Source of the DNA: an uncultured delta proteobacterium
GTDB taxonomy: Bacteria > Myxococcota > Myxococcia > Myxococcales > Myxococcaceae
Reading direction: 5' to 3'
Length of the DNA stretch: 64,000 bases
NCBI GenBank assembly: GCA_963771175.1
Contig: CAVYSY010000027.1
Location: forward strand, 1 to 64,000
Each line of letters begins with the position of its first letter. The first letter of the stretch is position 1. Made by a program: the position numbers and the translations under genes. This document shows positions 9,832-52,368 of this stretch, in pieces. A model generated the notes under the pieces. The model was given only the letters and a program-made list of their open reading frames with translations, was not told the DNA's origin and made no database searches.

Positions 9832-9843
9832 GGGCCCCGCAGC

Positions 9844-11694: not shown

Positions 11695-11712
11695 GCCCGC
11701 ACCGACGGGCCA

Positions 11713-32978: not shown

Positions 32979-33084
32979 CCGTCACCGGTCCAGTCAACCG
33001 GAGTGGAGCTGACGCGCCAGGACGAGCGGACGATGGCGACGCGTGGCAGGCTGCGGACCCTCAACCCCATACACGAGGGACTCC

Positions 33085-35272: not shown

Positions 35273-35282
35273 CCCCGCGGAC

Positions 35283-35316
35283 CCGCTCCCCTCTGCCCGC
35301 CGTGGGAGGGGAGCGG
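35283..35316. terminator. GC-rich hairpin between convergent genes
   Basis: CCGCTCCCCTC..GAGGGGAGCGG inverted repeat 10 bp after the peptidase stop. Confidence 0.55.
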
Positions 35317-35366
35317 AGACCGCCCCGGGCCCCTCACGCGGTCCCACGCCCGGAGGAAGTGGGCCT

Positions 35367-35391
35367 CTTCTTCTTCTGCTCGCGCAGCTCG
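35367..35391. repeat. 25-bp direct repeat, left copy
   Basis: CTTCTTCTTCTGCTCGCGCAGCTCG; 23/25 identical to 37208-37232. Confidence 0.8.
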
Positions 35392-35399
35392 TCGTGCCC

Positions 35400-36421
35400 C
35401 GGGTCTCCTCGGAGACAGCCGAGCCGCGAGCGCATCGGGATTTCGTTGATCTTCGTGTGACCGCCGTGGGCTTTGGCATCACCGCGGGAGGGTATCTTCT
35501 CTACTGCGAGGGGTTGCCGCTGCCCGTGCTCGTCCCCGAGTCGCATGTCGATCTCGGACTCACGAACGCAGTGCCGCTGAATGCATCCATCTACCCGGAC
35601 CGGGAGTCGGCCCTGCAGAAGTGGCGGACAATGCCCACGGGTCAAGACACGCGAGGTACGCCTATTACCGTGGAGCAGGGGGCGCGCTCATCGTGCCCAC
35701 CCTCTTCTCTCCGGCCACCACCCCCCGCATTGCCCAGACGATGCTCGAGGTGCGCAAACACCTGACAGAAACACTCCAGCGCGAGCTGAAGGTCCTCTTG
35801 TTGAGCCTGACGGGGACCAGGGTTCTGCAGGGAGTCTTCTCGAGCGTGGTGCGAGTGGGCTCGGAGCCAGCACTCCGACCGCCCGCCCAGAACAGGGGAG
35901 TCGGGGGCGAAGCTCCGGCGCCGCGACAACCGGTGACACGAGCAGCTGCACCCGATCCACAACCCGCTCCCGCTCCGGCGCCAACGGCTCCTGCTCCCGT
36001 GCCGGGCGCACCCGCGCCATCGCGGGGATTGGTCCAGGCGCTCACTGGCAACAACCCGACCGGACAGGTGGCTCCTGGTCCGCGCCTGCCGCAGGATGCC
36101 GCAGTCAGCACGAAGGTGCCCGCGGTACGTCGGTTGGACCGGCCCATCGGCTCCAGCCCGGTCCAGAATGCGCAGGTCCAGGCGGACATCGACTACCTGC
36201 AAAACCTGGGTGCCACGAACATCCGGGTGAACCAGCAGCAAGTCACAATACGCAACGGCCAGCGAGTGGGAGTCAATCGGCCGGACCTGCAGTTCGACTA
36301 TAACGGCCGCCGCTACCATGTGGAGTACGACACGCCCAGCTCGGGCCGTGGCTCTGGTCACCAGTCACGCATCACGTCCAACGACCCGAACACGGAAACC
36401 ATCCTCTTGATCGTGCCCTGA
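35400..36421 (+). CDS. Polymorphic toxin fragment with restriction-endonuclease-fold C-terminus (5'-truncated, frameshifted)
   Basis: Pro/Ala linker, then IRVNQQQV..NRPDLQF..YHVEYD (PD-(D/E)xK-like); immediately followed by an immunity-like gene. Confidence 0.65.
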
Positions 36422-36437
36422 CGGGAAGGCGCAGCCG

Positions 36438-37167
36438 ATGACCGAGAACATGAAGGGACTGCTCCTTGATGACCGCTGGGCGCCCATCACTTCGGGAGAT
36501 GGGATTTCTGGAGACTGATGCGGAACATGCCGCTCGCGCCTTCGCGGCGTGGCAGGCAGGGCTGCAGGCGCCCCGTGGCATCGCCGTGGAAGTGCGCCCG
36601 GTCTCGGGCTCCCTGGAGCAGGCCCTCTCGTCCCTGCTGCCAATGACCAGTCCAGAGACACGGCGATACCTCTTCATTCCGACACGAAGCCCCTGGACGG
36701 CGTACGTCGAAAACGGGTGGGGCGGGACCGATGCCGCGAGCGCTATGTCCTACATGGCCCGGACACTTGGCTGCCGGGGCATGCGTGTGGTCGCCGTGCC
36801 CCACACCCTCCGGAAGGACAAAGGCCGCTATGGCGCCGTGATGCTTGAGGTGTACGGCCCACATCGGACAGCATGGCTCAACTACGTTCGGACCCTGGGC
36901 GCGTCCAATGACGGGGGCCGCTGGGTCTTCGACCAATCCGGCGAGCCCTTCCCCTTCGAGAAGCTGGAGCAGTACCAGGCACGCCGGGTGAGGGACCGGT
37001 TCACGTTCGACATGCTCAAGGAGTACCTGCGTCACCTGGGGCTGTCGCCCTTCGAGGAGGACTTCTACCTGCCGCAGGGCACCCCCGCCTGGCTGGTGGA
37101 GAAGACAGGGACGTTCGTCCCCGCTCAGACGGAGTACGCCCTGGCCCAGGCTCGGGAGCACTTCTGA
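36438..37167 (+). CDS. Putative cognate immunity protein, frameshift near 36495
   Basis: Starts 16 bp after the toxin stop (MTENMKGLLLDDRWAPITS/EMGFLE); aromatic-rich; WVFDQSGEPFPFE..Y..RRVRDRFT. Confidence 0.65.
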
Positions 37168-37195
37168 CACAGGGTCTGAAGGAACTTTCCTCGGC

Positions 37196-38724
37196 TCAGG
37201 CGCTCGGCTTCTTCTTCTGCTCACGCAACTCGCCATAGAGCGAGACGCGGCCGGCCACCGTGCCCGCAACCACGTTCTCCAGCGGGCGCAGCGCCCGAGG
37301 CAGCGGCAGCACCGCCCTCATTCGCCGCCGCACCTCGTCCTCCACCAGGCCTCGCAGCACCTCGGACTGCACCCGCCCCAGCGTGGCGGCCACCACGTAG
37401 GGCTCTGTTCCACGGGTGCCTCCTCCGGCCGCACCACCTTCATGTGGTGCACCGCCAGGTCATAGAAGCTCCGCCGCGCGCACTCGTCGTCCTCGAAGGG
37501 GAACTCCCCTCCGAGCGCCTTGCCCACGGCCAGCCCCGAGGTGAATGCCATCTCGTGCCCGGAGATGAGCCCCGTGTACTCCCCGCAAAAGTAGGTGCGC
37601 CGCTTGCCCTGGATGCGGTGCAGCTCCGACGAACGCACCGCATGCACCCCGTCGAATACCAGGTGCTGCCAGTGCTTCGTCTCCACCACCTTCGCCGGGT
37701 CGATCAGCCCCTCGGGCGGATTGCACGTGGCGAACAGGTCCTCGCCTCCCACCCAGTCCTGCAGGTCCGGCAGGTAGTAGTTGTAGTGCGCCCGCTCGAA
37801 GGGTCCCCGCGCCTCCGGCGTGACGTACGTGTACGCCGCCCACAGGCTCCGGTCCTCCGGCATTACCCGCGCATCCGTGTGCAGCACGATGGTCGCCGGC
37901 TCGTACTCCACCTCGCCGAGCAGCAGCGCCTCGTCCGAGGAGGGGTCGTCCAACAGCTTCAGCGCCGTGCCCGCCTCCGTGGCCAGGACCACCTGGTCGA
38001 ACCGGTGCACCGAGCCGTCCATGCACGTCAGCGTCACCCCGTCCCGCTCGCGGCGGATGGAGCGGACCCCACAGCCCGTGCGCACGCTCGATGCGAAGCA
38101 CGCGGACAGCCGCCGCACGTACTCGCGCGAGCCCTGCTTCACCGTGCGCCACGGCGTAGGCCCCACCAGCGAGTAGCCGCTCACCGGCCCGAAGGTGGCC
38201 GCCACCATGAACATCGACATCCGCAACAGGCCGATGCGCGTGACGAAGAGGACCGACAGCAGCGGCGCCAGCACCTTGTGCTTGAAGTCCTCCGAGTACC
38301 CCTCCTGCTCCAGGTACTGCTCCACCGTCAGGGGCATGTACTTCTTCGGGTGGGAGACGATCTCCGGCAGCGCGAGCTGGAAGCGGTCCACCTCGTGCCG
38401 AACGGACTCCCAGAACGCCGAGTCCCGCCCCGTGCGCCAGTGGCCACCCTGAAAATGGATGGACAGCTCCAGGCCCCGGCGCATCGGCTGCGTCTCCACG
38501 CCCAGCCGCCGGAAGAGCGCCGACAGGTTCGGATACACCCACTCGTGGTAGATGAGGAACCCGATGTCCACCGGCACCGTGCGGCCACCGCGCGTCACCT
38601 CCGCGGTGTGCGCATGGCCTCCCAGCACCGGCGACGCCTCGAAGAGCGTCACCTGATGCTGGCGGTTCAGGCTGTAGGCGGCGCCCATCCCCGCGATGCC
38701 GCCGCCCACGACGGCGACCTTCAC
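37196..38724 (-). CDS. FAD-dependent oxidoreductase (COG2907-like), probable frameshift near 37400
   Basis: VAVVGGGIAG, LGGHAHT, VDIGFLIY..YPN, IQGKRRTYFCG..GHE; GTG start overlaps the FAAL stop. Confidence 0.85.
37208..37232. repeat. 25-bp direct repeat, right copy
   Basis: CTTCTTCTTCTGCTCACGCAACTCG. Confidence 0.8.
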
Positions 38725-40473
38725 GCAGCCTCCTCCATCAGCGGCTGCAGGCTGCGCTCCAGGTACGCGCGCTTCGCGGCCTGCCGTTGAATCTTGCCGC
38801 TGGACGTCTTGGGGATGCTCCCCGGCTTGAGGAACATCAGGTCGTGCAGCCGGAGCTGGTACGCGTCGTTGATGGCCTGACGCACCGTGTCCGTCGCCGC
38901 CTGGACGTCGAAGGCCGCGCCGCCCTGCTGCTGCTTCGTGTCCACCTCCGCCACCACCACCAGCCGCTCCTCGCCCTCCACCTCCACCGAGAAGGCCGCG
39001 CCACACCCCGGCCGCACCGCCGGCAGCGCCGCCTCCACCGTCCACTCGAGGTCCTGCGGGTAGTGGTTCTGCCCGCCGATGATGATGAGGTCCTTCCTGC
39101 GGCCGGTGATGTACAGCAGCCCGTCTCGCATGAAGCCCAGGTCTCCCGTGCGCAGCCACGTGCGGGAGTCATCCCCGCGGATGCGCGCGCGGAACGTCTC
39201 CTCGGACAGCTCCGGCTTCCGCCAGTAGCCCTGCGCCACGCTGGGTCCATACACCCAGATCTCCCCCACTCGCCCCTCCGGCAGGGGGTCGCGGGACTCC
39301 GGCTCCACGATGGCCAGGCCGTAGCCCTCCTGGGACTCGCCGCAGGAGACGATCTCCGCGGCGTTGGCGTCGCCCGCGGGCAGCGGCACCACCCGGTCCT
39401 CCTTGAGGGCCTCCTTGTCCACGCTCAGCGTCACCACGCCGCGCCCCTGCGCGCCCGGCGCCTTCAGCGTCGCCTCCGCGAGGCCGAACACCGGGAAGAG
39501 CGCCGCCGGGGAGAAGCCCCGGGGAGCAGAACGTCTCGATGAAGCGCCGCATGGTGCCCGCGCGCACCGGCTCGGCGCCGCAGTACGCGCTGCGCCACGA
39601 GGACAAATCCAATGCGGCCAGGGCCTCCGGCGTCGCCTTGCGCACGCACAGCTCGTAGCCGAAGTTGGGCCCTCCCGAGTGCGTCACCTTGAAGGCCGTC
39701 ACCGCCTGGAGCCAGCGCAGCGGGTGCTTGAGGAAGTCCGCCGGGGACATCAGGTACACCGGGTAGCCCGAGTAGAAGCCCTCCATCAGCCCGTCCACGA
39801 GCCCCATGTCGTGGAAGGACGGCAGCCACGTCACCGAGCACGAGTCCTCGCCCAGCTTCACGCTGCCCTGGATGTGGGCGACGTTGGCCAGCAGGTTGCC
39901 GTGGCTCACCATCACCCCCTTGGGCGACGAGGTGGAGCCCGAGGTGTACTGAAGGAAGGCGAGCTGCTCGCTCCGGACGCTGGCCGGAGACTCCAGCGCC
40001 GTCACGCCCAGGTCCTCCTGGTCGGTGGCCAGCCACTTCAGCTCCGCCAGGCCGGGCACCTGCTCGGCGAAGGCCGCCGCCATGGCGCAGATGTCGACGG
40101 TGGACAGCACCACCTTCGGGCGGCAGTCCGCGATGATGCCCAGCAGCCGGCCCAGGGTGCGCTCCAGCCGGGTGGGGTCCGGCGGGTAGGCCGGCACCGC
40201 CACCGTGCCCGCGTAGAGGCAGCCCAGGAAGGCCTCCACGTATTCCGCCCCCTGGGGGTAGAGCAGCAGCGCGCGCTCGCCCTCCACGCCGTGGGCCTTC
40301 AGCAGCGCGGCGATGGTGCGGGCCCGTTGATCCAACCCCGCGTAGGAGTGCGCCTTGCGCTCCTCGGTGCCACGCACGATGAAGGTGAGGGCCCTGCGCT
40401 CCGGATGGCGCTCGGCGCGACGATGAAGGATTTGCGCGAGCGATGTCGCGCCCGAGATGCAGTCAGAAGCCAT
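38721..40473 (-). CDS. Fatty acyl-AMP ligase (FAAL), frameshift near 39525
   Basis: AFLQYTSGSTSSPKGV, WLPSFHDMGL, GPNFGY, GAEPV, GLAEATL, FAAL-type insertion, LRTGDLG, GRRKD, PKTSSGK. Confidence 0.92.
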
Positions 40474-40506
40474 GGGGGTACTCCAATCCGAGAGGAGGGG
40501 GGTTCT

Positions 40507-41673
40507 CTACTGACGGGGAGGAAGCGGCGTGCCGTCGTTGCCATCCGAGATGCCGATGGCATTGGCGTACTCCTCATATCCGGCGGCGGGCCGCTCCGCC
40601 TTGCCGGCGGCGAGCTGCTCCCGGAAGCGCGGCACCGCGTCCACGTAGGAGCGGACCACGCCCACCGCGCGCAGCAGGCGGATGAAGAGGAAGGCCATGT
40701 CGAGCTGCGACGGCACCAGCCGCAGGTTGGCCGAGCGGGGGAACTTGTGGTGGTTGTTGTGCCACTCGGAGGCGAAGACGCCGTAGAAGACCTGGTTGAG
40801 GGCCAGCGTCCGATCGTCGAACTCCCAGCCCGGCATCTTCGCCCGCGGCCACCAGCCACCATGGCCGACGAAGTTGAAGTCGCGGATGAGGCAGGTGACG
40901 AAGCACACCGCCGCGTACCAGGCCAGCACGCACGGCACGCCGCCCACCGCATACGCCAACCCGGCCCACAGCACCTGCGCGACGAGCATGCGCACCGCGA
41001 GATGCCCGGCGTGCTCCACCGTCCCCGTGCGCCGGAACTGCTCATAGGTGCTGATGGGAAAGCCGATGTGGCTCACCGTCCTCGCCAGGTGCTCGTACTG
41101 CACCGGCGTCATGTCGGTGTTGAGCTTCGTCACCGACTCGATGGCCAGGTAGCTGGCGAGGCGTCCCAGGTGCGGGCCGTACGGGTCCCCCACCCTATCC
41201 GAGCGCTGGTGGTGCACCCGGTGGGGAATGGCGTAGGTGTCCTCGCGGACGGTCATGCCGTTGAGCCACAGGAAGACGCGCGCCAGCCAGGGGTAGCGGA
41301 ACTCGAAGGCCTTGTGCGAGCAGTAGCGGTGCAGCCACGCCGTGTGCGTCACCGTGGCCAGGAAGAAGGCGGAGACGGAGAAGTAGAGGGCGCTCTTCCA
41401 CGACAGGTGCCAGCCCACGAACGCCACCAGGCACCCCATCGTCGACAGATGGAAGAGCACGTGCAGCGCGGCCGGCAGCCGGCGGAGGTCGGCGAGGAAG
41501 TTCACCGCGCTCCACCACTCGCGCAGCGCCTCGCCCACGGTGGGCTTCTTCGGCGTGCCCTCCGGTGTGGCCCACCCGAAGACAGGCTCCTGGAGGACCC
41601 AGCCCGCCTTGTTGCCCACGGGCGAGGACGGCTCCCCCTCCTCGGAGAGCAACCGCCGGGCCGCCTCAGCCAT
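40507..41673 (-). CDS. Membrane-bound fatty acid desaturase (Delta9/JamB-like)
   Basis: His boxes HRYCSH, HRVHH and HNNHH; TM segments. Confidence 0.88.
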   Translation of the reverse strand: MAEAARRLLSEEGEPSSPVGNKAGWVLQEPVFGWATPEGTPKKPTVGEALREWWSAVNFLADLRRLPAALHVLFHLSTMGCLVAFVGWHLSWKSALYFSVSAFFLATVTHTAWLHRYCSHKAFEFRYPWLARVFLWLNGMTVREDTYAIPHRVHHQRSDRVGDPYGPHLGRLASYLAIESVTKLNTDMTPVQYEHLARTVSHIGFPISTYEQFRRTGTVEHAGHLAVRMLVAQVLWAGLAYAVGGVPCVLAWYAAVCFVTCLIRDFNFVGHGGWWPRAKMPGWEFDDRTLALNQVFYGVFASEWHNNHHKFPRSANLRLVPSQLDMAFLFIRLLRAVGVVRSYVDAVPRFREQLAAGKAERPAAGYEEYANAIGISDGNDGTPLPPRQ

Positions 41674-42403
41674 TGGCCCAGCCCTCGCGCCAGCTCACGA
41701 TGCGCGCACCGCACACCTTCTCGAACTTGCGCTTCATCTGCAGCACGGTGGTGAAGTCGTTCTCCACCGCCACCGGCAGCTCGCACACGTGCCAGCCGTA
41801 GTGCTTGAAGTTGCTGGCTGCCCGCAGCACCTCGGGCTTCAGCTCCGGCTTGCGCTCCAGCAGCTTGGTGAGAATCTGGTAGCCGCCCTCCGCGTGGCGG
41901 AACTCGTCCACGGAGATGAAGTTCAGCAGCTTCGCCAGCACCTTCTCCTGGCACTGCGCCGCGAGCTGCCGGGCGAAATAGCCCGCCGCGTGCTCGGACC
42001 AGATGAAGTTCACCAGCTCCTGGACGGTGTCCTCGGGCTTGAAGTTGACGTGCTCGATGTTGCGCTTGCGGATCTCCACCAACTCCTCGTCGGTGATGCG
42101 CGGCTCGCAGCCCACGATGTCCAGGTAGCGCCGCAGGCTCCAGAAGTGCCGGAAGCCCTCGAAGCACTCCACCTGGAAGACCGAGGTGGCATCCACGTCC
42201 TCGTGGAGCAGCTTGATGAGCGAGACGGTGCCCAGCGCGTGGTAGGACTCGATGAGGGCCGTGCGCCGCACCTTGTCCAGGATGTCCGGCTGGCTCAGCG
42301 CGACCTCGCGGTCGATGTCCCCCCAGGGGATGTCCTTCTCCACGTTCCAGCGCGACTCCGACTTGGCGCCGAAGAAATCGTAATAGTAACGCTCCGTCGT
42401 CAT
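41666..42403 (-). CDS. Ferritin-like diiron enzyme
   Basis: W..DIPW N-terminus; E..EGFRH and E..DEFRH carboxylate/His pattern; ATGA overlap with the ligase. Confidence 0.8.
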   Translation of the reverse strand: MTTERYYYDFFGAKSESRWNVEKDIPWGDIDREVALSQPDILDKVRRTALIESYHALGTVSLIKLLHEDVDATSVFQVECFEGFRHFWSLRRYLDIVGCEPRITDEELVEIRKRNIEHVNFKPEDTVQELVNFIWSEHAAGYFARQLAAQCQEKVLAKLLNFISVDEFRHAEGGYQILTKLLERKPELKPEVLRAASNFKHYGWHVCELPVAVENDFTTVLQMKRKFEKVCGARIVSWREGWANG

Positions 42404-43377
42404 GGCATCCGCTCCGTGGAAGGAATCACTTCGCGCCACGCCGCGGGATCCGTCCCGTGGTACGCGACGAACGCCGCCACCCAGCGCTCCAGCCCGAAGG
42501 CGATACAGCCCGTGCTGGCCTGCTGCCCGTCCGGCAGGGAGAGGCCGAAGGTGCGGGAGAACGAGTCCCCGTGCAGGTTGAAGGAGGCGATCGCGAGGTC
42601 TCCTCCCTTCTGCCCGGTGACGTCCACCAACAGCTCGTACTTGAGCGACTGCGCCCGCTGCAGCAGCGTGCGCGCCCGGCCCTCCACCGCTCCGAAGAAC
42701 GGGTCCGAGGCCACGTCGATGCGCCCGGAGAGGCCGTGCGCCCTGGCGAACTCCACCACCTCCAGCAGCAGCTTCTCGCGCAGGCTGGCGATGGGCGCCT
42801 CGGGCCCCAGCAGGACGATCTCCCGCATGGTGAACTCCCACTGCCGGCGCAGCGGGGCGAACTCCCCGTGCTCGTAGCGGAAGCACCGGCCCTGGGTGGT
42901 GAGCACCATCGGCTCGCCGGTGATGGCGCGCCCCTCGAGCTCCGCGTAGCAGTGGTAGCAGACGGCGCCGGACAGCACCGCGCCCGACGAGCGCACCCGG
43001 GAGGCAGCCGTCGCCTCCACCCGCTCGCCCCCCTTCACCGCGTCCACGAACTGGCGCAGGGACGCGGTGTCCCGGTCCAGGCACATGGCGAAGGTGGCGT
43101 GGTGCGGGAAGGACTTGAAGTAGTCCGTCCGCTCCATCACCGAGATGGGCATCAGCGTGGGGTACTGGCGCTCGGAGGCGCCGTGCTTGAACGCCAGCTC
43201 GAGGAACTTGCGCTCGAAGTAGCGGAACAGCCACAGCGCGGGGCCGGACATGCCCAGCGTGCCGTTCTCGTACGAGCGCAGGTCTCCCCGCTCCAGCAAC
43301 TGGCCCACCGCCTCCGGCCGGGGCGAGCGGCCCGAGCTGAAGGCGAGGCTCTTCGGGTCCACCGTCAGGGAGCTCAC
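42400..43377 (-). CDS. Amino acid--[carrier protein] ligase (class II seryl-tRNA-synthetase-like, no tRNA-binding domain)
   Basis: YFKSFPH, AVCYH, CFRYE (motif 2), FTMRE, ASDPFF, KYEL, SFNLH, GCIAFGLER (motif 3); translationally coupled to a carrier protein. Confidence 0.87.
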   Translation of the reverse strand: MSSLTVDPKSLAFSSGRSPRPEAVGQLLERGDLRSYENGTLGMSGPALWLFRYFERKFLELAFKHGASERQYPTLMPISVMERTDYFKSFPHHATFAMCLDRDTASLRQFVDAVKGGERVEATAASRVRSSGAVLSGAVCYHCYAELEGRAITGEPMVLTTQGRCFRYEHGEFAPLRRQWEFTMREIVLLGPEAPIASLREKLLLEVVEFARAHGLSGRIDVASDPFFGAVEGRARTLLQRAQSLKYELLVDVTGQKGGDLAIASFNLHGDSFSRTFGLSLPDGQQASTGCIAFGLERWVAAFVAYHGTDPAAWREVIPSTERMP

Positions 43378-43637
43378 GCCTTCGCCTCCCCACCCGGGCA
43401 GAACGTGTCGGCGATGATCCGCGGCGTGCGGAAGTAGTTCATCGTCAGCTTGTCCTCGGGCACCTCGATGGAGAGCTCGCTCTCGATGAAGCCCATCAGG
43501 TCGATGATGCGCATCGAGTTGATGAGGCGATTCTCGAACAGCGCGGTGTCCCGGCCGATGTCCGCGGTGATGCCGTTCTCCACGCACAGCTTGCGAATGA
43601 AGGCGAGCAGCCGCTCCTCGAACTGATTCCTGTCCAT
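43374..43637 (-). CDS. Carrier protein 1 (aminoacyl carrier type)
   Basis: 87 aa; LINSMRIIDL (Ser attachment site, NS variant); IEVPE..FRT. Confidence 0.85.
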   Translation of the reverse strand: MDRNQFEERLLAFIRKLCVENGITADIGRDTALFENRLINSMRIIDLMGFIESELSIEVPEDKLTMNYFRTPRIIADTFCPGGEAKA

Positions 43638-43650
43638 GGTGTGTCCCTCG

Positions 43651-44778
43651 TCAGCTCCGGTTACGTCCCCAGTCGGTGGCCACGCCGTGGCGCAGCACGT
43701 CGCGCAGCAACTGCGTCGCGGGCGGCGGCTTCACCCGCTCGCCGAGCAGCGTGTGCACGGGCCGGGCGTCGAACACCTGGGAGGCCAGCAGGTGCCCGTA
43801 CATGGTGTCCCCGAGCCGGACGACCTCGTGGGACTGCTTGTTCTGCGTCTGCAGCAGCGTGCGCCGCAGCAGCGTGTACGTGTCCTCGTCGACGATGTCC
43901 GGCGGGAGGAAGACCCCCTGGGCCCAGCGCCGCTCCGTCTCCGCGGACACCTCGGTCATGATGTCGATGAAGTCCCGCAGCCGCAGGCCCTCGTCCCCGT
44001 TGCCGATGTGGAAGGTGCGGCCCGGCTGGTAGTGCTCCAGGAAGAGCGTGAGCAGGGCGGAGGCCGCGTAGTCGTTGGACGACAGGTCCATCCGCGAGTC
44101 GTCGGTGCCCGGCAAGGCGCCCACGTGCCCCTGGTAGAAGAGCCGCATGAGCGAGTGCATGGAGTTGTACCGGGTCACCTCGCCGCTATCCCGGCCGATG
44201 AGGTAGGCCAGCCGGTACATGGCGATGGGCAGCTCCTTCATCAGCCCGCGCACGAAGTGCTCCGCCTCGTACTTGCTCTGCTCGTACGGGTTGACGAAGC
44301 CCGCCTCGTGCACCTCGTCCGTCTCCAGGAAGCGGCCCTTGCGGTGGCCCGCCACGAAGAGGGTGCTCACGTAGCCGACGCGCTCCAGCCGGCGGAAGGT
44401 GCGCACCACCTCGAAGACATGGCGCGTGCCGTCCACGTTGGCCAGCCGCGCCTCCGGCAGCGGAGCGTCCAGCTCCACGTTGGCCGCCGAGTGGATGACG
44501 TGCGTCACCTCGTCCGCCAGCCGCGCCGCGTCCTCCGGCGACAGCCCCAGCCCGGGCCGGGTGATGTCGCCCAGCACGGGCACGAACTGGCCCTCGGGCG
44601 GGCGCGTCGAGGCATCCGGCCACAGCTTCGCCGCCAGCTTCGACCAGCGGGCCTTGAGCACCACGGGCGAGGGGGCCCGGATGAGCGCGTACACCCGCGC
44701 CTTCGGCGTGTTGCGGGCGATCCAGCGCGCCATCTCCATACCGACGGCGCCGGTGATTCCAGTCAGGAACAGGTTCAT
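43651..44778 (-). CDS. Thioester reductase / fatty acyl reductase-like extended SDR
   Basis: LTGITGAVG, GDIT..LGL, IHSAANV, NVDGT, VST, YEQSK. Confidence 0.87.
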   Translation of the reverse strand: MNLFLTGITGAVGMEMARWIARNTPKARVYALIRAPSPVVLKARWSKLAAKLWPDASTRPPEGQFVPVLGDITRPGLGLSPEDAARLADEVTHVIHSAANVELDAPLPEARLANVDGTRHVFEVVRTFRRLERVGYVSTLFVAGHRKGRFLETDEVHEAGFVNPYEQSKYEAEHFVRGLMKELPIAMYRLAYLIGRDSGEVTRYNSMHSLMRLFYQGHVGALPGTDDSRMDLSSNDYAASALLTLFLEHYQPGRTFHIGNGDEGLRLRDFIDIMTEVSAETERRWAQGVFLPPDIVDEDTYTLLRRTLLQTQNKQSHEVVRLGDTMYGHLLASQVFDARPVHTLLGERVKPPPATQLLRDVLRHGVATDWGRNRS

Positions 44779-44811
44779 GGTGTGGGAGGTTCCGTGGGGG
44801 GGGCGCGTGCG

Positions 44812-45790
44812 TCAGATCCGCACGATGCTGCAGCCCCAGTGCGCGCCGAGCCCGAAGGAGAACATCATCACGTGGTCGCCCTTCTTCACCAGGCCCTGGT
44901 CGATGACGTCCTTGAGGTTGATCCAATTGTCCGCCGCCACCGAGTGGCCCTTGGGACGGATGTTCTCCGTGTAGATCTTCTCCAGGGGGATGCCGGTGAA
45001 CTTGCTGAGGATCTCCCAGCTCCGCAGGCTGACGTTGTGGGGGATGAGGAGCTTGATGTCCTCGCGAGCCAGCCCGCTGGCCTTGAAGGTCTTCTCCAGC
45101 ACGCGCTTGCCGGTGGGGAAGTAGGCGGCGAGCAGCTCGTTCTGGTGGCCGTCCGGGTCCCAGTAATAGCCGCGGGTGAGCGTGTGGTACGTCTTGAGCT
45201 GGAGGCCCTCGGGATCGCGCGACAGCAGCACCGCGCACGCCGAGTCGCTGCAGACGTTGTAGACGACCTCGCGCTTGATGCCGTCGGGGAAGACGTCCGC
45301 GTTGACGCAGAGGGCGTACTTCAGGTCCTCCATCTCCATGACGGCGTGGGCCAGCCACACCGCGTGGGACAGGGAGACGCAGCCCAGCTCGCTCAGGCCC
45401 ACCGTGCGCGCGTTGGACAGGCCCAGCTCGTCCTGGAGGCGCGTGCTGGAGAAGCGGAACAGCCCCAGGTGCGCGTTGTCCCCCGAGGGGTACTCGGCGA
45501 GCGAGTCGCCACGCGGCACCAGCGAGCTGGTGGGCAGCACGCTCGCGTTGATGAGCAGCCCCACCTCCAGCGGATCCACCCCGTGACGCTCCAGCAGCGC
45601 CTTGAGGGTCGTCGAAGCGAGCTGCGTGGCCGGCACATTCGACACCCGGCAGTCGCCGAAGCCGAAGTCCGCGCATCGTCTCGGGCGTGCTGACGAGGCG
45701 CCCCTCTTCCGCGAGTTGCTCGAGGCCGACCTGCCGCTCGGGCAGCGTGTAGTGGATACCGTGGATGCGAATGGTCGAGGACGGATTCAT
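44812..45790 (-). CDS. KAS III (FabH-like) condensing enzyme/acyltransferase, frameshift near 45675
   Basis: ELGCVS catalytic Cys, SDSACA, IPHN, GHSVAAD, FGLGAHWG. Confidence 0.85.
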
Positions 45791-46458
45791 GAGCGCACGA
45801 TGGCCAGCAGGTGGTGGTGCAGGGCCAGGAAGGTGAAGGCGAACTCGCGGGAAACGGGCTGACGCAGTCGGAGCACGCCCTCGCCGAGCTCGGGCTCCAG
45901 GGCGCGCAACGGAAGGGGCTCCGGCGGGCGGAGGGCCTTGTAGAGCGCCTCCTTCAGCAGCCACAGCCGCGGGGCCAGCTCCGGCTCCCGCTCGCAGCGG
46001 GCCCGCTCGGCGGGAGTAAGGAAGAAGTGCCACAGCCGCTCGGGGATGGGGGCCACCGGCTCCACGTCCACGCCCACCTGGCCGCGCGAGGTGACGGCCG
46101 CCACCGACAGGCCGCGCCCGTGGCTGAGCGACACCTCCAGGCGCCGCGAGCCCTCCGGCACGTGCAGCCGGGGCTCTCCCTGGGGGCCCGGCAGCACCTC
46201 CACGTGGCTCGGCGGACACTCCGGGCCGAGCAGCTCCCGAGCCACCTGCTTGCACACCCGGCGCCCGCGGAGCCACTCGTGCTGGCGAGGGCCGGGCAAC
46301 GCGGAGAGGACGTCCCGCTCGCGCTCGGACAGGAGCTCCCACCCGAGCGGCGAGGCCGGAGCCGGCGCCAGGACGCCGACGCCCACCTCATCCCAGCAGA
46401 GGAAGGAACCCCCCTCCGGAGCAGAGAGCGTCATGCCTTGCATTACTCCGGGTTGCAT
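45787..46458 (-). CDS. Sfp-type 4'-phosphopantetheinyl transferase
   Basis: GEP, VSLSH, VGVDVE, WLLKEALYKA. Confidence 0.88.
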   Translation of the reverse strand: MQPGVMQGMTLSAPEGGSFLCWDEVGVGVLAPAPASPLGWELLSERERDVLSALPGPRQHEWLRGRRVCKQVARELLGPECPPSHVEVLPGPQGEPRLHVPEGSRRLEVSLSHGRGLSVAAVTSRGQVGVDVEPVAPIPERLWHFFLTPAERARCEREPELAPRLWLLKEALYKALRPPEPLPLRALEPELGEGVLRLRQPVSREFAFTFLALHHHLLAIVRS

Positions 46459-46532
46459 AATTGGTGTGTAGAGTACACTTCGCCGACAAGCAAGGCCCCC
46501 CTGATTTTTCAGTCAAACCGGAGAGATTGACA

Positions 46533-46931
46533 TTGCCTGAAAACAACATCTTCGCGCGCATCGTTCGAGGAGAGATTCCCTGTCACAAGGTGTGGGAGGA
46601 CGAGCGGCACCTGGCCTTCCTGGACATCCGGCCGGTGCAGCCCGGACACACGCTGGTGATTCCGAAGGCGGACGGGGACTACCTGTTCGACCTGGAGCCC
46701 CAGCGGTACGGGGAGCTGATGCAGGCGGTGCGCACGGTGGCGCGGCTGCTCAAGGAGCGCACCGGGTGCCAGCGCGTGGTGGAGGTGGTGCTGGGCTACG
46801 AGGTGCCTCACGCCCACGTGCACCTGATTCCCACCGACTCCATGGCGGACCTGCCGCCCATCCTCGGCACTCCGGCGGAGCAGGCGGACCTGGCGGCCAT
46901 GGCGGCGCGCCTGCGAGGCCCGGGCAAATGA
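46533..46931 (+). CDS. HIT family hydrolase
   Basis: IFARIVRGEIP, AFLDIRP, GHTLVIPK, VPHAHVHLIP. Confidence 0.92.
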   Translation: MPENNIFARIVRGEIPCHKVWEDERHLAFLDIRPVQPGHTLVIPKADGDYLFDLEPQRYGELMQAVRTVARLLKERTGCQRVVEVVLGYEVPHAHVHLIPTDSMADLPPILGTPAEQADLAAMAARLRGPGK

Positions 46932-47179
46932 CGCCCTCCACGAAGACGGCGGAGGACATCCAGCGCTGGCTGGTGGAGCGCGTGGCGGGCTTCCTGGAGC
47001 TGACGCCCGCGGACATCGACGTGCGGGCGCCCTTCCAGCACTACGGGTTGGACTCGATGGAGCAGCTGCGCATCATCGGCGAGCTGGAGACGTGGCTGCA
47101 GCGGGAGTTCGAGGAGACGCTGCTGCGCCAGTACCCCACCATCGAGTCGGTGGCGGCCTTCCTGGCGAAGGCCGCCTGA
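46928..47179 (+). CDS. Carrier protein 2 (acyl carrier, PKS/FAAL type)
   Basis: WLVERVA..IDVRAPFQHYGLDSM..YPTIESVA; ATGA overlap with the HIT gene. Confidence 0.9.
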   Translation: MTPSTKTAEDIQRWLVERVAGFLELTPADIDVRAPFQHYGLDSMEQLRIIGELETWLQREFEETLLRQYPTIESVAAFLAKAA

Positions 47180-47239
47180 GGCCCGAGCGCCGCGCGGGGG
47201 CTTCGGCACGAGGAAGTGCCGGAGCCCACCGGGCGAGAC

Positions 47240-49077
47240 TCATGCCGCGCGCGTGTCGCCACTCTTCTCGGCGTCGCGGTACAGCTCCTCCAGCGCCTCG
47301 CCGAACTTCTTGAGCACGTTGCGGCGCTTGAGCTTGAGCGACGGCGTCAGCATGTCGTTGGCGGTGGTGAAGTCCTCGCTGATGAGCAGGAAGCGCTGCG
47401 GCTTCTCGTAGCCCTTGAGCCCGCGTGGACAGCTCGTTGATCTGCTCGCGGTAGAGCTGCTGCACCTCGGGCCGCTTGAGCAGCTCGGGGATGGAGGTGG
47501 TGTCGAGGCCCTTCTCGCTGGCCCACTTCTTCAGCGCCTCCATGTCCGGGACGATGATCGCCACGTTGAAGGGCTTGTTCTGCGCCGTGCATCATCACGT
47601 TGGCGATGACGGGCGAGAGCTTGCAGCGCCTGCTCGATGGGCACCGGCACCACGTACTTGCCGTTCTCCAGCTTGTACTGCTCCTTGATGCGGCCGGTGA
47701 TGTAGAGGAAGCCGTCGTCGTCGAGGTAGCCCATGTCGCCGGTGCGGAAGCCGCCGTCGCCGGTGAAGACCTTCGCGTTCTCCTCGGGCAGGTTGTAGTA
47801 GCCCATCATCACGTTGTGGCCGTAGACGACGATCTCGCCCTGCTCGGCGTCGCCGGTCGCGGCGCGTGTCGATCTCGACGCGCACGCCGGGGATGGCCTT
47901 GCCGACCGAGCCGATCTTGCCGGTGGCCCGGGTAGTTCGCGGTGGCGATGGGGCGACGTCTCGGTGAGGCCGTAGCCCTCGTAGACGGTGATGCCGAGGT
48001 TGTCGATGAACTCGGCGACCTCGCGCGAGATCGCCGCGCCGCCGCAGAAGGCGTACTTCAGCCGGCCGCCGAAGCGCTCGCGCACCTTGGAGAAGACGAC
48101 CTTGTCGAAGACGGCGTGCTGCAGGTCCAGCAGCACGCTGCTCTGCTGCCCTGCGCCGCGAGCTGCCTTGCGCTGCTTGGCCGCCATCCGAGGCCGCGCG
48201 TGAAGAGCATGCGCTTGATGGCCGACTCGGCGGCCATGCGCTTCTGCAGCCCGTCGTAGATGCGGTTGAAGATGCGCGGCACCGAGAAGAGCAGCGTGGG
48301 CTTCACCTCGGCGAGGTTGTCGATGATCTTCTCGACGCTCTCGGCGATGCCCATCGAGGCGCCCATGGAGAACAGGCCGTGGAGCTCGACGACCTGCCCG
48401 AAGGAGTGCGCCCACGGGAGGAAGGACGAGCGAGCGATCCTCCAGGTCATGCGGGAAGATCTCGTGCATGGCGCGTCACGTTGCGCGCGAGGTTCGCGTG
48501 GCTGAGCATCACGCCCTTGGGGTTGCCGGTGGTGCCCGAGGTGTAGATGAGGCCGGCCAGGTCCGCGGGCTTGGGCTGGGTGAGCACGGGGCTGGGCGTC
48601 TCCGCGCCGCGGCGCAGCAGGCACGCGATAGGAGTCCGTCTCGGTCTCGGTGCCGGAGAAGCGGATGATGTGCTCGAGCTTGGGCAGCGGCCGGCTTGAG
48701 CGCCTCGAGCTTGGCGGCGATGGCGTCGGTGGCGGCGAACACCACCTTGGCGCCGCAGTCATTGAGGATGTACTGCCACTCCTTGTCGAGCTGCTGCTCG
48801 TACATGGGCACGTAGGCGGCCCCCAGCGTGTACGACGGCATAGGCGCCCACCGCCCACTCGTGCCGGTTGTTGGAGATGACCGCCACCCGATCACCCGTG
48901 CGTCACGCCGAGCTGGGACAGACCTCCGCGCAGGTCGTCCACGAGCTGGCCGAACCGCGCATAGGACATCCACGTCCACTGCCCGTTCTTCTTCTCCCCG
49001 AAGAGCGGCCGCGGGCCGAAGGAAGCGGTGCTCTGCAGGAAGATCTCGACCAACGTGTCGAACTTGGGGCTCGCCAT
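47240..49077 (-). CDS. Long-chain fatty acid--CoA ligase, many frameshifts
   Basis: [52 protein letters not shown]. Confidence 0.88.
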
Positions 49078-49258
49078 GTGTACCTGGGCTCCTTGGGTTC
49101 AGCGATGTGGGCGGTGTCGAAGGACCCCCCCCGATGCCTGGGAATGCCGGGAAGCTATCGCAACTCGAGTCCTACTGGATGGGTCTCCAAGCACTTTGGA
49201 CCGCACTCGAAGTGGAAAGTGGACATGACGCATGGAGTCATGGCGCGCGGCACGAGCC

Positions 49259-50938: not shown

Positions 50939-50967
50939 GATGACCTGGGTGCCATGATACGCCCAGC

Positions 50968-52324: not shown

Positions 52325-52368
52325 CCCGCGACTCCTAGCACGGCCGCCCTACTCCAACGTCGCTCGCT

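What the first reader, a model, noticed from the sequence alone, without database searches (positions are those of the whole stretch)
37196..47179. NRPS/PKS-free lipo-amino-acid pathway built on an aaRS-like ligase, two carrier proteins and three oxidising enzymes
Seen: nine tightly coupled minus-strand genes, several with ATGA/GTGA overlaps (PPTase, KAS III, SDR, CP1, aa:CP ligase, ferritin-like diiron, desaturase, FAAL, FAD oxidoreductase), plus a divergent HIT-CP2 pair. Known: SerRS-like ligases load small amino acids onto carrier proteins and their downstream products are largely unknown; FAAL+ACP+membrane desaturase is the JamABC architecture for alkene/terminal alkyne formation; extended SDRs release thioesters reductively. 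Inference: an aminoacyl arm (CP1) and an unsaturated acyl arm (CP2) are joined by the KAS III and released as an N-acyl amino aldehyde/alcohol or a related signal lipid or antibiotic. I do not recognise this combination from a characterised cluster.
Basis: partly seen in the sequence, partly recalled or inferred. Interest (0 to 1): 0.88.

Follow-up and report, generated by a model that had tools for sequence, protein, structure and literature searches.

The report
NRPS-free lipo-amino acid gene cluster
A conserved myxobacterial gene cluster appears to make a small fatty-acyl amino alcohol or aldehyde without the usual giant peptide synthetases, which would give a tRNA-synthetase-like enzyme family its first biological role.

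Summary
On the minus strand lie PPTase, KAS III, thioester reductase (TR), CP1, an aa:CP ligase, a diiron protein, a membrane desaturase, FAAL and an FAD oxidase. HIT and CP2 diverge from them, and six gene junctions overlap. Three corrections apply. FAAL, KAS III and the FAD oxidase each carry a frame-breaking 1-nt indel in this sequence. All three are intact in Archangium relatives, and similar breaks hit unrelated genes across the window, so sequence error is the likelier cause. The conserved block runs on to about 49100 and includes a broken FadD11-like acyl-CoA synthetase. The desaturase and FAD oxidase are accessory, being absent in A. gephyra. The core (PPTase, KAS III, TR, CP, ligase, diiron enzyme) recurs in Gemmatimonadota, and in Acidimicrobiia with an AurF-type enzyme. 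The KAS III family has an invariant Cys-His-Asp triad that aligns with the CerJ acyltransferase. The TR is closest to the myxalamid MxaA reductase. The ligase is closest to Bll0957. This supports N-acylation of a CP1-bound amino acid followed by reductive release, but no step is shown experimentally. I found no published description. I rate it a new variant of a known kind, of moderate to high interest.

The parts
37196..38724 (-). FAD-dependent amine/amide oxidase of the MAO family, related to LkcE. Accessory tailoring enzyme. Frame break (1-nt deletion) near 37384.
   Evidence: Pfam Amino_oxidase 2.2e-24. PDB best hit LkcE 6f7v, E 1.5e-50, full length. LkcE residues E64, Y182 and R326 are replaced by L, M and Y. 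The tail continues in ORF 37196-37396. Absent from L004. The ortholog is an intact 507-aa ORF in L003.
38721..40473 (-). Fatty acyl-AMP ligase (FAAL). Split into two frames by one extra base at 39527, in a C4G4 run.
   Evidence: Pfam AMP-binding on both pieces. NCBIfam FAAL subfamilies 1e-53 to 1e-97. Break located. The L003 ortholog is a single 583-aa ORF.
40507..41673 (-). Membrane fatty-acid desaturase-like protein (388 aa). Accessory.
   Evidence: His boxes HRYCSH, HRVHH and HNNHH plus two hydrophobic stretches. NCBIfam DesA family 4.2e-15, below cutoff. Atlas top three clusters are FA_desaturase at 0.96-0.97. No Pfam hit. Absent from L004 and from all distant loci.
41666..42403 (-). Ferritin-like diiron oxidase of a small, unannotated subfamily. 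Core component.
   Evidence: Invariant E52, E82, H86, E137, E167, H170 in 33 of 33 sequences. Profile vs PDB: DesA2 1.3e-9. AF2 model pLDDT 90.9. Foldseek: stearoyl-ACP desaturase 5.5e-4, TM 0.5-0.6, and R2lox. Only 59 representatives at E<=1e-30 among 1.84 billion. Orthologs sit in the same position in L031 and L062.
42400..43377 (-). Amino acid:[carrier protein] ligase (truncated class II, SerRS-like).
   Evidence: NCBIfam PRK07080 1.8e-49, 168.5 bits against a cutoff of 357. PDB Bll0957 2.2e-33, against type-2 SerRS 2.6e-20. 325 aa with no tRNA-binding domain. Invariant C140, E186, C291 in A1.
43374..43637 (-). Carrier protein CP1, the ligase's presumed partner.
   Evidence: GTGA overlap with the ligase start. 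Weak NCBIfam DltC and PRK07081 carrier hits. INS motif Ser41 invariant in 7 of 7. CP is fused to the ligase in L031 and in many database homologues.
43651..44778 (-). Stand-alone thioester reductase (extended SDR).
   Evidence: Pfam NAD_binding_4 5.5e-43. TIGR01746 2.8e-36, below cutoff. PDB best hit MxaA reductase 4u7w, 3.1e-24. GITGAVG and YEQSK motifs.
44812..45790 (-). KAS III-fold enzyme with a Cys-His-Asp triad (acyltransferase type). Split by one extra base at 45669.
   Evidence: Pfam ACP_syn_III_C. True start at the ATGA overlap with the PPTase stop. Intact in L002-L004. C137, H282 and D287 in 32 of 32, with the FabH His position variable. Alignment to CerJ H295/D300 through a family member. 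dN/dS 0.05.
45787..46458 (-). Sfp-type phosphopantetheinyl transferase.
   Evidence: Pfam ACPS 8.9e-13 and 4PPT_N. Present in the distant syntenic loci L062, L038, L066, L045 and L065.
46461..46931 (+). HIT-family (HinT-like) hydrolase. Its role in the pathway is unknown. The real start is probably TTG at 46527 or 46533.
   Evidence: Pfam HIT 5.3e-20. HAHVH motif and an RBS-like GGAGAGA before 46527. Conserved with CP2 in L002-L004.
46928..47179 (+). Carrier protein CP2 (GLDSM motif), presumed partner of the FAAL.
   Evidence: Pfam PP-binding 1.7e-11. ATGA overlap with the HIT stop. Conserved in L002-L004 only.
47240..49077 (-). FadD11-like long-chain fatty-acid-CoA ligase, convergent with CP2. 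Broken here by about 16 indels that are not multiples of three.
   Evidence: AMP-binding fragments in three or more frames. Indel list. The L003 ortholog is an intact 656-aa ORF, FadD11 8.6e-88. dN/dS 0.36, within the range of its neighbours.

Best explanation
This is a biosynthetic operon of an Archangium-like myxobacterium that builds a small lipo-amino compound on free-standing carrier proteins, with no NRPS or PKS. Proposed route, with each step marked. (1) The Sfp-type PPTase primes CP1 and CP2 (inferred). (2) The SerRS-like ligase adenylates a small amino acid and loads it on CP1. Characterised family members load Gly or Ala. The family assignment is shown here; the substrate is inferred. 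(3) A fatty acid is activated by the FAAL and parked on CP2, or supplied as acyl-CoA by the FadD11-like synthetase (inferred). (4) The KAS III-fold enzyme has the Cys-His-Asp triad of the CerJ/ChlB3-type acyltransferases, not the FabH Cys-His-Asn triad. It takes the acyl group on Cys137 and transfers it to the amino group of aminoacyl-S-CP1, playing the part of an NRPS condensation domain (triad shown; reaction inferred). (5) The acyl-ACP-desaturase-like diiron enzyme oxidises the carrier-bound intermediate by desaturation or hydroxylation (fold and ligands shown; substrate unknown). (6) The MxaA-like thioester reductase releases the product as an N-acyl amino aldehyde or alcohol (inferred). 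The membrane desaturase and the LkcE-related flavin oxidase are lineage-specific tailoring steps. The frame breaks in FAAL, KAS III and the FAD oxidase are most likely errors in this sequence, not gene decay.
For: Family assignments. Ligase with CP1: GTGA coupling, CP::ligase fusions in homologues, and Bll0957 as best solved relative at 2.2e-33. Reviews state that these ligases load Gly or Ala on a CP encoded in the same operon (PMC5370406 passage; PMC9437257 passages). KAS III: C137, H282 and D287 invariant in 32 of 32, while the FabH His position is H in only 26 of 32 and the FabH Asn is His in 32 of 32. CerJ is the top PDB hit for family member L066, with His and Asp aligned on CerJ H295 and D300. 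Published triads are ChlB3 C113/H296/D301, DpsC S118/H297/D302 and OxaC S113/H292/D297, all acyltransferases (PMC9573744 and PMC12308425 passages). TR: MxaA reductase is the best solved relative at 3.1e-24. It is the terminal reductase domain of the myxalamid NRPS module, and its structure paper is titled for production of primary alcohols (PMC8024701 passages and reference list). Conserved core: PPTase-KAS III-TR-CP-ligase-diiron lie in the same order in L062, and the same minus PPTase in L031. The Acidimicrobiia loci L038 and L066 hold AMP-binding, KAS III, AurF, (CP)ligase, TR and PPTase. Counts: 10 of 80 loci have KAS III near the ligase and 12 of 80 have the TR; the two extra loci are cut at the contig end. 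All 13 ligases from this context fit one side of one branch of the ligase tree, and 0 of 500 label shuffles did as well. Function retained: dN/dS is 0.05-0.38 for 12 of 12 genes. Error rather than decay: the broken genes are intact in L001-L004. The indels are mostly 1-nt insertions. They also hit the prolyl oligopeptidase at 34594 and split a Na+/H+ exchanger 20 kb away over three frames.
Against: No step has been tested experimentally, and the amino acid, the acyl chain and the acceptor atom are all unknown. For the Archangium protein, overall KAS III sequence similarity is higher to FabH (5.1e-13) than to ChlB3 (8.3e-5) or CerJ (2.3e-4). The fold search does not separate FabH, ChlB3, OleA and DpsC, which all score TM 0.75-0.80. 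The FabH-type His is kept in 26 of 32 family members, so condensing chemistry is not excluded. The ligase, TR and desaturase all score below NCBIfam curated cutoffs. The diiron enzyme's subfamily is unresolved: Atlas neighbours include AurF-labelled and desaturase-labelled clusters, and an AurF protein fills the equivalent slot in Acidimicrobiia. The tree support for one clade is weak (59), it comes from the quick search only, and the branches are long. About 16 indels concentrated in one 1.8-kb gene is an odd pattern for random sequence error, and most of the inserted bases are not in homopolymer runs.
Confidence: 0.5

Rival explanations
1. The KAS III is a true condensing enzyme. Either the aminoacyl group from CP1 primes a decarboxylative condensation with malonyl-ACP, giving a gamma-amino-beta-ketoacyl chain, or an acyl group is joined to the alpha-carbon of aminoacyl-S-CP1. 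Reduction by the TR would then give a 2-amino-3-keto alcohol resembling a sphingoid base, made without PLP.
For: KAS III fold with FabH among the top hits. The FabH-type His position is His in 26 of 32 and the neighbouring Asn252 is invariant. OleA, a non-decarboxylative Claisen enzyme, is also a close structural match.
Against: The FabH catalytic Asn is replaced by His in 32 of 32. The invariant residues are the Cys-His-x4-Asp set of CerJ and ChlB3, and six family members lack the FabH His. The alpha-carbon of an aminoacyl thioester is a poor nucleophile without PLP (established chemistry, inference).
Confidence: 0.15
2. The pathway follows pvf/mgo/ham logic. The diiron enzyme N-oxygenates the CP1-bound amino acid, the KAS III acylates the resulting hydroxylamine or a later amine, and the TR releases an N-oxygenated product (hydroxamate, diazeniumdiolate or pyrazine N-oxide type) that acts as a signal or metallophore.
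For: In L038 and L066 a clear AurF-family protein (1.1e-32 and 2.3e-39) sits between KAS III and the ligase. L031 has an extra ferritin/AurF-like protein fused to a carrier domain. One Atlas neighbour cluster of the window's protein is labelled AurF, with a 28% share. The parallel between carrier-bound amino acid, diiron N-oxygenase and reductase and the PvfB/HamC systems is recalled; for those systems I saw only search listings and a reference title.
Against: In the window's diiron family the position four residues before the last Glu ligand is Ile or Cys in 31 of 33 and never His. FDO N-oxygenases carry a characteristic seventh His there (PMC12154687 passage). hhalign probability against the AurF-like proteins is 1.2% and 0.7%. 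The nearest solved proteins are acyl-ACP desaturases, DesA2 and R2lox.
Confidence: 0.12
3. The KAS III moves the aminoacyl group rather than the acyl group. It takes the amino acid from CP1 and esterifies or amidates a hydroxylated or aminated acyl chain on CP2, with the hydroxyl installed by the diiron enzyme. The TR then releases from CP2, giving an O-aminoacyl fatty alcohol or aldehyde.
For: CerJ-type enzymes transfer acyl groups to hydroxyl acceptors and ChlB3 shuttles acyl groups between carrier proteins (PMC9573744 passages). The diiron enzyme resembles enzymes that act on acyl-ACP.
Against: By my motif screen, the variants in L062, L066 and L080 have only one carrier protein, next to the ligase. 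CP2 and the FAAL are absent from the Gemmatimonadota loci. So a second acyl-carrier arm cannot be essential to the core chemistry.
Confidence: 0.1
4. In this particular strain the cluster is genuinely inactivated. The frame breaks in FAAL, KAS III, the FAD oxidase and the acyl-CoA synthetase are real mutations, and the locus is a decaying remnant.
For: There are three frame breaks in the nine-gene operon and about 16 in the neighbouring synthetase. Most inserted bases are not in homopolymer runs, so this is not classic homopolymer error.
Against: The indels are overwhelmingly single-base insertions. Frame breaks also occur in unrelated genes: the prolyl oligopeptidase and a Na+/H+ exchanger split over three frames. 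Catalytic motifs and GC3 codon bias are intact in the fragments. dN/dS of the most broken gene (0.36) matches its intact neighbours. All the orthologs are intact in four related genomes.
Confidence: 0.15

Closest known systems
Bll0957-type amino acid:[carrier protein] ligases with their operon-encoded carrier proteins (Bradyrhizobium; Mocibob et al. 2010, 2013; known to me from reviews and recall, original papers not held)
   Same: A truncated class II SerRS-like catalytic core without a tRNA-binding domain. The Cys/Glu/Cys positions are conserved. The carrier protein is encoded immediately upstream, or fused in relatives. Bll0957 is the best solved relative.
   Different: Similarity is only moderate: E 2.2e-33, and 168.5 bits against the NCBIfam cutoff of 357. 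Here the pair is embedded in a conserved set of KAS III, reductase, diiron enzyme and PPTase. The biological role of the characterised ligases is stated to be unknown.
Myxalamid terminal NRPS module MxaA (A-PCP-R), with reductive release
   Same: The stand-alone reductase's nearest solved relative is the MxaA R domain. The proposed last step, reduction of an N-acylated aminoacyl thioester, is the same kind of reaction. That MxaA acts on an alanyl thioester to give an amino alcohol is my recall.
   Different: All functions here are separate proteins. An aaRS-like ligase replaces the adenylation domain and a KAS III-fold acyltransferase replaces the condensation domain. Whether two or four electrons are transferred cannot be told from sequence.
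CerJ / ChlB3 / DpsC / OxaC: KAS III-fold acyltransferases
   Same: Thiolase/KAS III fold with the nucleophile and a His-x4-Asp pair at the same aligned positions.
   Different: This is a distinct and divergent family. For the Archangium protein FabH scores better than ChlB3 or CerJ. Most members also keep the FabH-type His. The partners here are an aminoacyl carrier protein system, not a type II PKS or a sugar. Clade membership was not tested by phylogeny.
pvf / mgo / ham clusters (valdiazen, fragin, pyrazine N-oxides): A-T-R NRPS plus an AurF-like N-oxygenase (architecture recalled; only search listings and a reference title were seen)
   Same: A carrier-bound amino acid, a ferritin-like diiron enzyme and a terminal reductase form the conserved logic. 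The Acidimicrobiia variant even has an AurF-family enzyme.
   Different: There is no NRPS. The window's diiron enzyme lacks the N-oxygenase-type seventh His and is unrelated to AurF at profile level. A KAS III acyltransferase is an added core member.
JamABC / TtuABC terminal-alkyne cassettes
   Same: An acyl-activating ligase, a membrane desaturase with three His boxes and a dedicated carrier protein all occur in one locus (PMC8341276 passages).
   Different: This is not a three-gene cassette: CP2 lies 5 kb away on the other strand behind a HIT gene. The desaturase is missing from A. gephyra and from all distant variants. Sequence relatedness to JamB or TtuB could not be tested.
LkcE, the amide oxidase and Mannich cyclase of lankacidin biosynthesis
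   Same: Full-length similarity, E 1.5e-50, in the MAO family of FAD enzymes.
   Different: The residues strictly conserved in LkcE-type cyclases (E64, Y182, R326) are Leu, Met and Tyr here. The gene is accessory, being absent in L004.
Soluble acyl-ACP desaturases, DesA2 and R2lox (ferritin-like diiron oxidases)
   Same: A four-helix-bundle diiron fold with six conserved carboxylate and His ligands. These are the nearest solved structures.
   Different: The protein is about 245 aa against 270-360. The first motif is E-x3-H rather than ExxH. TM is only 0.5-0.6. No Pfam family passes its cutoff (FA_desaturase_2 2.1e-3). The family is rare: 59 representatives at E<=1e-30.

Membership tests
Amino acid:[carrier protein] ligase (aa:CP ligase) | Class II SerRS-like catalytic core without the tRNA-binding N-terminal domain | tested here: met
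   325 aa. Pfam tRNA-synt_2b. PDB Bll0957 2.2e-33, ahead of type-2 SerRS (527 aa) at 2.6e-20.
Amino acid:[carrier protein] ligase (aa:CP ligase) | Score above the curated equivalog cutoff of NCBIfam PRK07080 | tested here: not met
   168.5 bits against a cutoff of 357, E 1.8e-49. This is a divergent branch of the family.
Amino acid:[carrier protein] ligase (aa:CP ligase) | Zinc-binding Cys/Glu/Cys conserved (identity of the ligands is recalled) | tested here: met
   C140, E186 and C291 are invariant in 25 of 25. The Cys-containing motifs align with Bll0957.
Amino acid:[carrier protein] ligase (aa:CP ligase) | Cognate carrier protein encoded in the same operon | tested here: met
   CP1 stop and ligase start overlap as GTGA. 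CP::ligase fusions occur in homologues. Reviews.
Amino acid:[carrier protein] ligase (aa:CP ligase) | Aminoacylates the phosphopantetheine arm of the CP and not tRNA | not testable with these tools
   Needs an in vitro loading assay.
CerJ/ChlB3/DpsC-type KAS III acyltransferases | KAS III (thiolase) fold | tested here: met
   AF2 model pLDDT 88.6. Foldseek ChlB3 3.0e-24 TM 0.79, DpsC TM 0.80, FabH TM 0.78.
CerJ/ChlB3/DpsC-type KAS III acyltransferases | Nucleophile plus a His-x4-Asp pair in place of the FabH His/Asn pair | tested here: met
   C137, H282 and D287 in 32 of 32. Aligned to CerJ H295 and D300. Published triads.
CerJ/ChlB3/DpsC-type KAS III acyltransferases | Loss of the FabH decarboxylation residues | tested here: inconclusive
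   The Asn is replaced by His in 32 of 32, but the FabH His position is still His in 26 of 32.
CerJ/ChlB3/DpsC-type KAS III acyltransferases | Placement in the DpsC-like clade | not tested
   No phylogeny with reference sequences was built. By E-value the Archangium protein is nearer FabH and the Acidimicrobiia member is nearer CerJ.
NRPS/PKS-type thioester reductase (TR, extended SDR) | NAD_binding_4 domain with a GxxGxxG motif and a catalytic YxxxK | tested here: met
   Pfam 5.5e-43. GITGAVG and YEQSK. MxaA reductase 3.1e-24. TIGR01746 scores 125.5 bits against a cutoff of 213.35.
JamABC/TtuABC alkyne cassette | Adjacent three-gene cassette of ligase, membrane desaturase and ACP | tested here: not met
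   FAAL and the desaturase are adjacent, but CP2 lies 5.3 kb away on the opposite strand. The desaturase is absent from L004.
JamABC/TtuABC alkyne cassette | Desaturase homologous to JamB or TtuB, with acetylenase activity | not tested
   No JamB or TtuB sequence was available. Only the three His boxes and general FA_desaturase likeness are shown.
AurF-type diiron N-oxygenases (as in PvfB/HamC systems) | Six metal ligands plus the seventh His characteristic of N-oxygenases | tested here: not met
   Six ligands are present. The position four residues before the last Glu is Ile or Cys in 31 of 33 and never His (criterion from PMC12154687). hhalign 1.2% and 0.7%. No Pfam AurF hit.
LkcE-type amide oxidase/cyclases | E64, Y182 and R326 strictly conserved | tested here: not met
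   They map to Leu, Met and Tyr. The chain numbering offset of 4 is validated by Y168, Y182 and R326 of LkcE.
Soluble acyl-ACP desaturase family (PF03405) | Pfam gathering score and two ExxH motifs | tested here: inconclusive
   PF03405 E 2.1e-3, 17.4 bits against 22.7. One E-x3-H motif and one ExxH motif. DesA2 is the best solved sequence relative at 1.3e-9.

The most novel reading that the evidence does not exclude
A cross-phylum, NRPS-independent 'split assembly line' in which an aaRS-like ligase stands in for the adenylation domain, a CerJ-type KAS III for the condensation domain and a free-standing reductase for the R domain. Together with a previously undescribed diiron oxidase subfamily acting on the carrier-bound intermediate, they make N-acyl amino alcohols or aldehydes. 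If the amino acid is glycine the products would be N-acylethanolamine-like lipids. This would be the first physiological role for aa:CP ligases, an open question since 2010.
Probability: 0.35. Interest if true: 0.8.

Novelty: new variant of a known kind. Interest (0 to 1): 0.62.

Why it matters
A 2022 review still states that the biological role of aa:CP ligases 'remains unknown' (PMC9437257 passage), although they have been known biochemically and structurally since 2010. This locus places one branch of that family in a defined operon under purifying selection. The operon's core recurs in three phyla, and it is present in named Archangium genomes (A. violaceum Cb vi76, A. gephyra SDU49). That makes the question directly testable by knockout, heterologous expression and in vitro reconstitution. 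It also suggests a compact, modular way of making N-acyl amino alcohols or aldehydes. Those compound classes include signalling lipids and protease-inhibitor warheads. The locus also points to a rare, uncharacterised diiron oxidase subfamily. Standard NRPS/PKS-centred genome mining would probably overlook clusters of this type.

Tried and rejected
(1) Complex prediction of the KAS III dimer with CP1 (collected): score 0.01, verdict 'no answer'. I do not use it either way.

(2) Equivalence of the window's diiron protein with the AurF proteins of the Acidimicrobiia variant: rejected at sequence level (hhalign 1.2% and 0.7%; no seventh His).

(3) The FAD oxidase as an LkcE-type Mannich cyclase: rejected.

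(4) Using fold to decide FabH-type versus acyltransferase-type KAS III: not discriminating.

(5) The top profile hit of the diiron family in the PDB was a de novo designed helical bundle (9u78, 2.5e-10). It matches only the repeated helix carrying the D-E-x-R-H motif, so I disregarded it.

(6) Promoter and terminator scan of 36900-49400: no promoters, and one terminator-like site inside the FAD oxidase gene on the wrong strand, fewer than in shuffles. Rfam scan of 33000-53000: nothing.

(7) Literature: five searches found no paper on a cluster combining an aa:CP ligase with KAS III, reductase or diiron genes. Mocibob 2010 is not held. PMC10817482 has no mention of carrier proteins.

(9) The careful maximum-likelihood tree did not finish, so only the quick tree is reported.

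(10) In one search three of my query pieces (FAD oxidase, CP2 and one ACSL piece) were out of frame. I corrected this. The FAD oxidase column should be read through.

(11) Amino-acid specificity of the ligase: I know no specificity code and did not attempt a prediction.

Full report
WHAT IS THERE. The window is about 69% G+C. Third-position GC frame plots, Pfam and NCBIfam resolve a minus-strand operon. In transcription order it holds an Sfp-type PPTase (45787-46458), a KAS III (44812-45790), a thioester reductase (43651-44778), carrier protein CP1 (43374-43637) and an aa:CP ligase (42400-43377). These are followed by a ferritin-like diiron protein (41666-42403), a membrane desaturase-like protein (40507-41673), a FAAL (38721-40473) and an FAD amine-oxidase-family enzyme (37196-38724). 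A plus-strand pair diverges from it: HIT (46461-46931) and CP2 (46928-47179). Six junctions overlap: ATGA three times, GTGA twice, and one of 8 nt.

Three genes are not single ORFs in this sequence. The FAAL changes frame at an extra base at 39527, in a C4G4 run. The KAS III starts at the ATGA overlap with the PPTase stop and changes frame at an extra base at 45669. The FAD oxidase loses frame near 37384, and its real tail is the small ORF ending at 37196. A twelfth gene lies convergent with CP2, at 47240-49077 on the minus strand. It is a FadD11-like fatty-acid-CoA ligase, broken by about 16 indels that are not multiples of three.

ERROR OR DECAY. In the four Archangium loci recovered (L001-L004), all these genes are in one frame wherever the locus covers them. 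Across the cluster these loci share 88-90% DNA identity with the window, and their ligases are 92-94% identical. The window's differences are almost all single-base insertions, and most are not in homopolymers. The same kind of break occurs in unrelated genes: the prolyl oligopeptidase at 34594 and a Na+/H+ exchanger 20 kb away, split over three frames. With the indels ignored, dN/dS against A. violaceum is 0.05-0.38 for 12 of 12 genes. The most broken gene (0.36) sits within the range of its intact neighbours. I therefore read the breaks as sequence errors. I put about 0.15 on real inactivation in this strain, because the concentration of indels in one gene is odd.

CONSERVATION. I scanned the species-representative genome collection with a ligase alignment. 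tblastn with all cluster proteins gave these results:
- The full locus is found only in Archangium. L001 is cut at a contig end.
- A. gephyra SDU49 (L004, a complete genome) lacks the desaturase and the FAD oxidase.
- PPTase, KAS III, reductase, CP, ligase and diiron protein occur in the same order in Gemmatimonadales L062, and the same set without PPTase in L031.
- An AMP-binding enzyme, KAS III, an AurF-family protein, CP, ligase, reductase and PPTase occur in the Acidimicrobiia/Actinomycetota loci L038 and L066. L078 and L080 are partial, and L045 and L065 are cut.
- In all, 10 of 80 loci have the KAS III and 12 of 80 have the reductase.

The other loci I sampled use the ligase in quite different settings:
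- a hexapeptide transferase, CP::ligase and GNAT trio (L005, L008, L013, L018, L040, L061);
- nonulosonic-acid and capsule genes (L006, L054);
- CP, acyl-CoA dehydrogenase, ligase, a carrier domain fused to a thioesterase, a P450 (L009 only) and an NRPS in Streptomyces (L009, L016).

A quick ML tree of the 81 ligases groups them by context. The 13 ligases from the KAS III/reductase context fit one side of one branch. Support there is 59 and the branches are long, but 0 of 500 shuffles did as well.

THE PARTS.
- Ligase. Bll0957 is the best solved relative (2.2e-33, against 2.6e-20 for type-2 SerRS). There is no tRNA-binding domain, and the Cys/Glu/Cys positions are invariant. It scores below the NCBIfam equivalog cutoff. 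Reviews say such ligases load Gly or Ala on an operon-encoded CP and that the downstream role is unknown.
- KAS III. Across 32 family members C137, H282 and D287 are invariant. The FabH Asn is always His, and the FabH His position varies: H 26, N 4, P 1, Q 1. For the actinobacterial member CerJ is the top PDB hit, and the printed alignment puts the family's His and Asp on CerJ H295 and D300. ChlB3, CerJ, DpsC and OxaC share this His-x4-Asp arrangement and are acyltransferases rather than condensing enzymes. The fold alone does not discriminate.
- Reductase. The MxaA R domain is the nearest solved relative (3.1e-24), and the NAD and YxxxK motifs are present.
- Diiron protein. The family is rare and unannotated. 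There were 58 word-index hits, and 59, 185 and 391 representatives at 1e-30, 1e-10 and 1e-3 among 1.84 billion. The six ligands are invariant. The nearest relatives are DesA2, stearoyl-ACP desaturases and R2lox, at TM 0.5-0.6. It lacks the seventh His of N-oxygenases and is unrelated to the AurF-like proteins at profile level. Atlas neighbours are mixed.
- FAD oxidase. It resembles LkcE over its full length (1.5e-50) but lacks the residues that define the LkcE cyclases.
- Desaturase. It has three His boxes and two hydrophobic hairpins, and its Atlas neighbours are FA_desaturase clusters.

HOW IT MOST LIKELY WORKS (confidence about 0.5). The ligase loads a small amino acid on CP1. The KAS III acyltransferase transfers a fatty acyl group to its amine. 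That acyl group comes from FAAL/CP2 in Archangium, and from acyl-CoA or FAS acyl-ACP in the variants with a single carrier. The diiron enzyme oxidises the tethered intermediate. The reductase releases an N-acyl amino aldehyde or alcohol. The desaturase and flavin oxidase tailor the product in some Archangium species. What is shown: the family assignments, the active-site residues, the gene coupling, the synteny and the selection. What is inferred: every substrate, the acceptor atom and the product. The rivals are C-C condensation, pvf/ham-like N-oxygenation, aminoacyl transfer to a lipid acceptor, and a dead locus. Each is given in its own section with the result that would refute it.

COMPARISON AND NOVELTY. 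The logic matches thiotemplated lipo-amino acid assembly with reductive release, as in the myxalamid terminal module. In the AurF-bearing variant it matches pvf/ham. Here, though, each NRPS domain is replaced by an unrelated free-standing enzyme. I found no description of such a cluster in five literature searches. The library lacks most subscription journals, and MIBiG and antiSMASH could not be run. I rate it a new variant of a known kind, with interest 0.62.

Noticed in passing
window 19078-20977 (+), 33043-35272 (+), 47240-49077 (-): Frame-breaking single-base indels occur across the window and are not confined to the cluster. A Na+/H+ exchanger is split over three frames, with its TrkA_N domain in a fourth ORF. 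The prolyl oligopeptidase breaks at 34594. About 16 indels are packed into the acyl-CoA synthetase. The indels are mostly insertions and mostly outside homopolymers, in a patchy pattern that suggests uneven sequence quality.
   Followed up: partly
L005, L008, L013, L018, L040, L061 (around 8600-11900 in each; L061 3035-6135): A second conserved context for the ligase family: a hexapeptide-repeat acyltransferase, a CP::ligase fusion and a roughly 320-aa GNAT protein. It occurs in Sorangium, Polyangiaceae, Acidobacteriota, Planctomycetota and a Gemmatimonadota MAG. L018 has an LPG_synthase_TM protein next door, so this may be aminoacylation of a lipid or glycan.
   Followed up: partly
L006 5761-14334; L054 6993-14485: In Anaerolineales the ligase sits among NeuB, a cytidylyltransferase, a capsule-synthesis protein (L006 only), a GNAT (L054 only), an aminoglycoside-N-acetyltransferase-like protein and DUF4910 genes. 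That suggests aminoacyl decoration of a nonulosonic acid or capsule sugar. This is the largest ligase clade among the kept loci (43 of 81 tree rows).
   Followed up: no
L009 8251-16890; L016 7876-16500: Streptomyces cellostaticus has two paralogous loci with a CP, an acyl-CoA dehydrogenase and the ligase. L009 also has a carrier domain fused to a thioesterase and a P450. Both have an A-T-C NRPS. Here an aa:CP ligase appears to feed an NRPS pathway, possibly through a dehydro-amino acid.
   Followed up: no
L031 6568-7461: A ferritin/AurF-like domain fused to a C-terminal carrier (PP-binding) domain, directly after the ortholog of the window's diiron protein. A methyltransferase is inserted between the ligase and that diiron protein.
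   Followed up: no
L062 13129-17797; L038 1918-5322 and 12607-16283: The distant core clusters carry different neighbours. L062 has a radical SAM/SPASM protein and an MMPL transporter. L038 has a P450, an animal-haem-peroxidase-like protein, a patatin and a tyrosinase. These may be variant-specific tailoring and export functions.
   Followed up: no
window 35621-36421 (+) and 36466-37167 (+): Two coding-looking ORFs with no Pfam or NCBIfam family lie between the prolyl oligopeptidase and the cluster. The segment is absent from L002 and L003, and partly present but rearranged in A. gephyra L004, where it replaces the FAD oxidase.
   Followed up: partly
protein P0193: A KAS III homologue with 49% identity comes from Teredinibacter, the genus that holds the TtuABC terminal-alkyne cassette. 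Whether the two are linked could not be checked.
   Followed up: no
window 50968-52302 (-) and about 49400-49850 (-): A MATE efflux pump and a pseudouridine synthase lie just beyond the acyl-CoA synthetase. This stretch (about 49218-52400) does not align with the Archangium relatives, so the pump is not a conserved part of the cluster.
   Followed up: partly
window 11713-13701 (-): A 662-aa protein with lipase maturation factor domains (LMF1 and LMF1_C, each about 3e-49) lies next to a PlsC-type acyltransferase (10930-11694). It appears unrelated to the finding.
   Followed up: no
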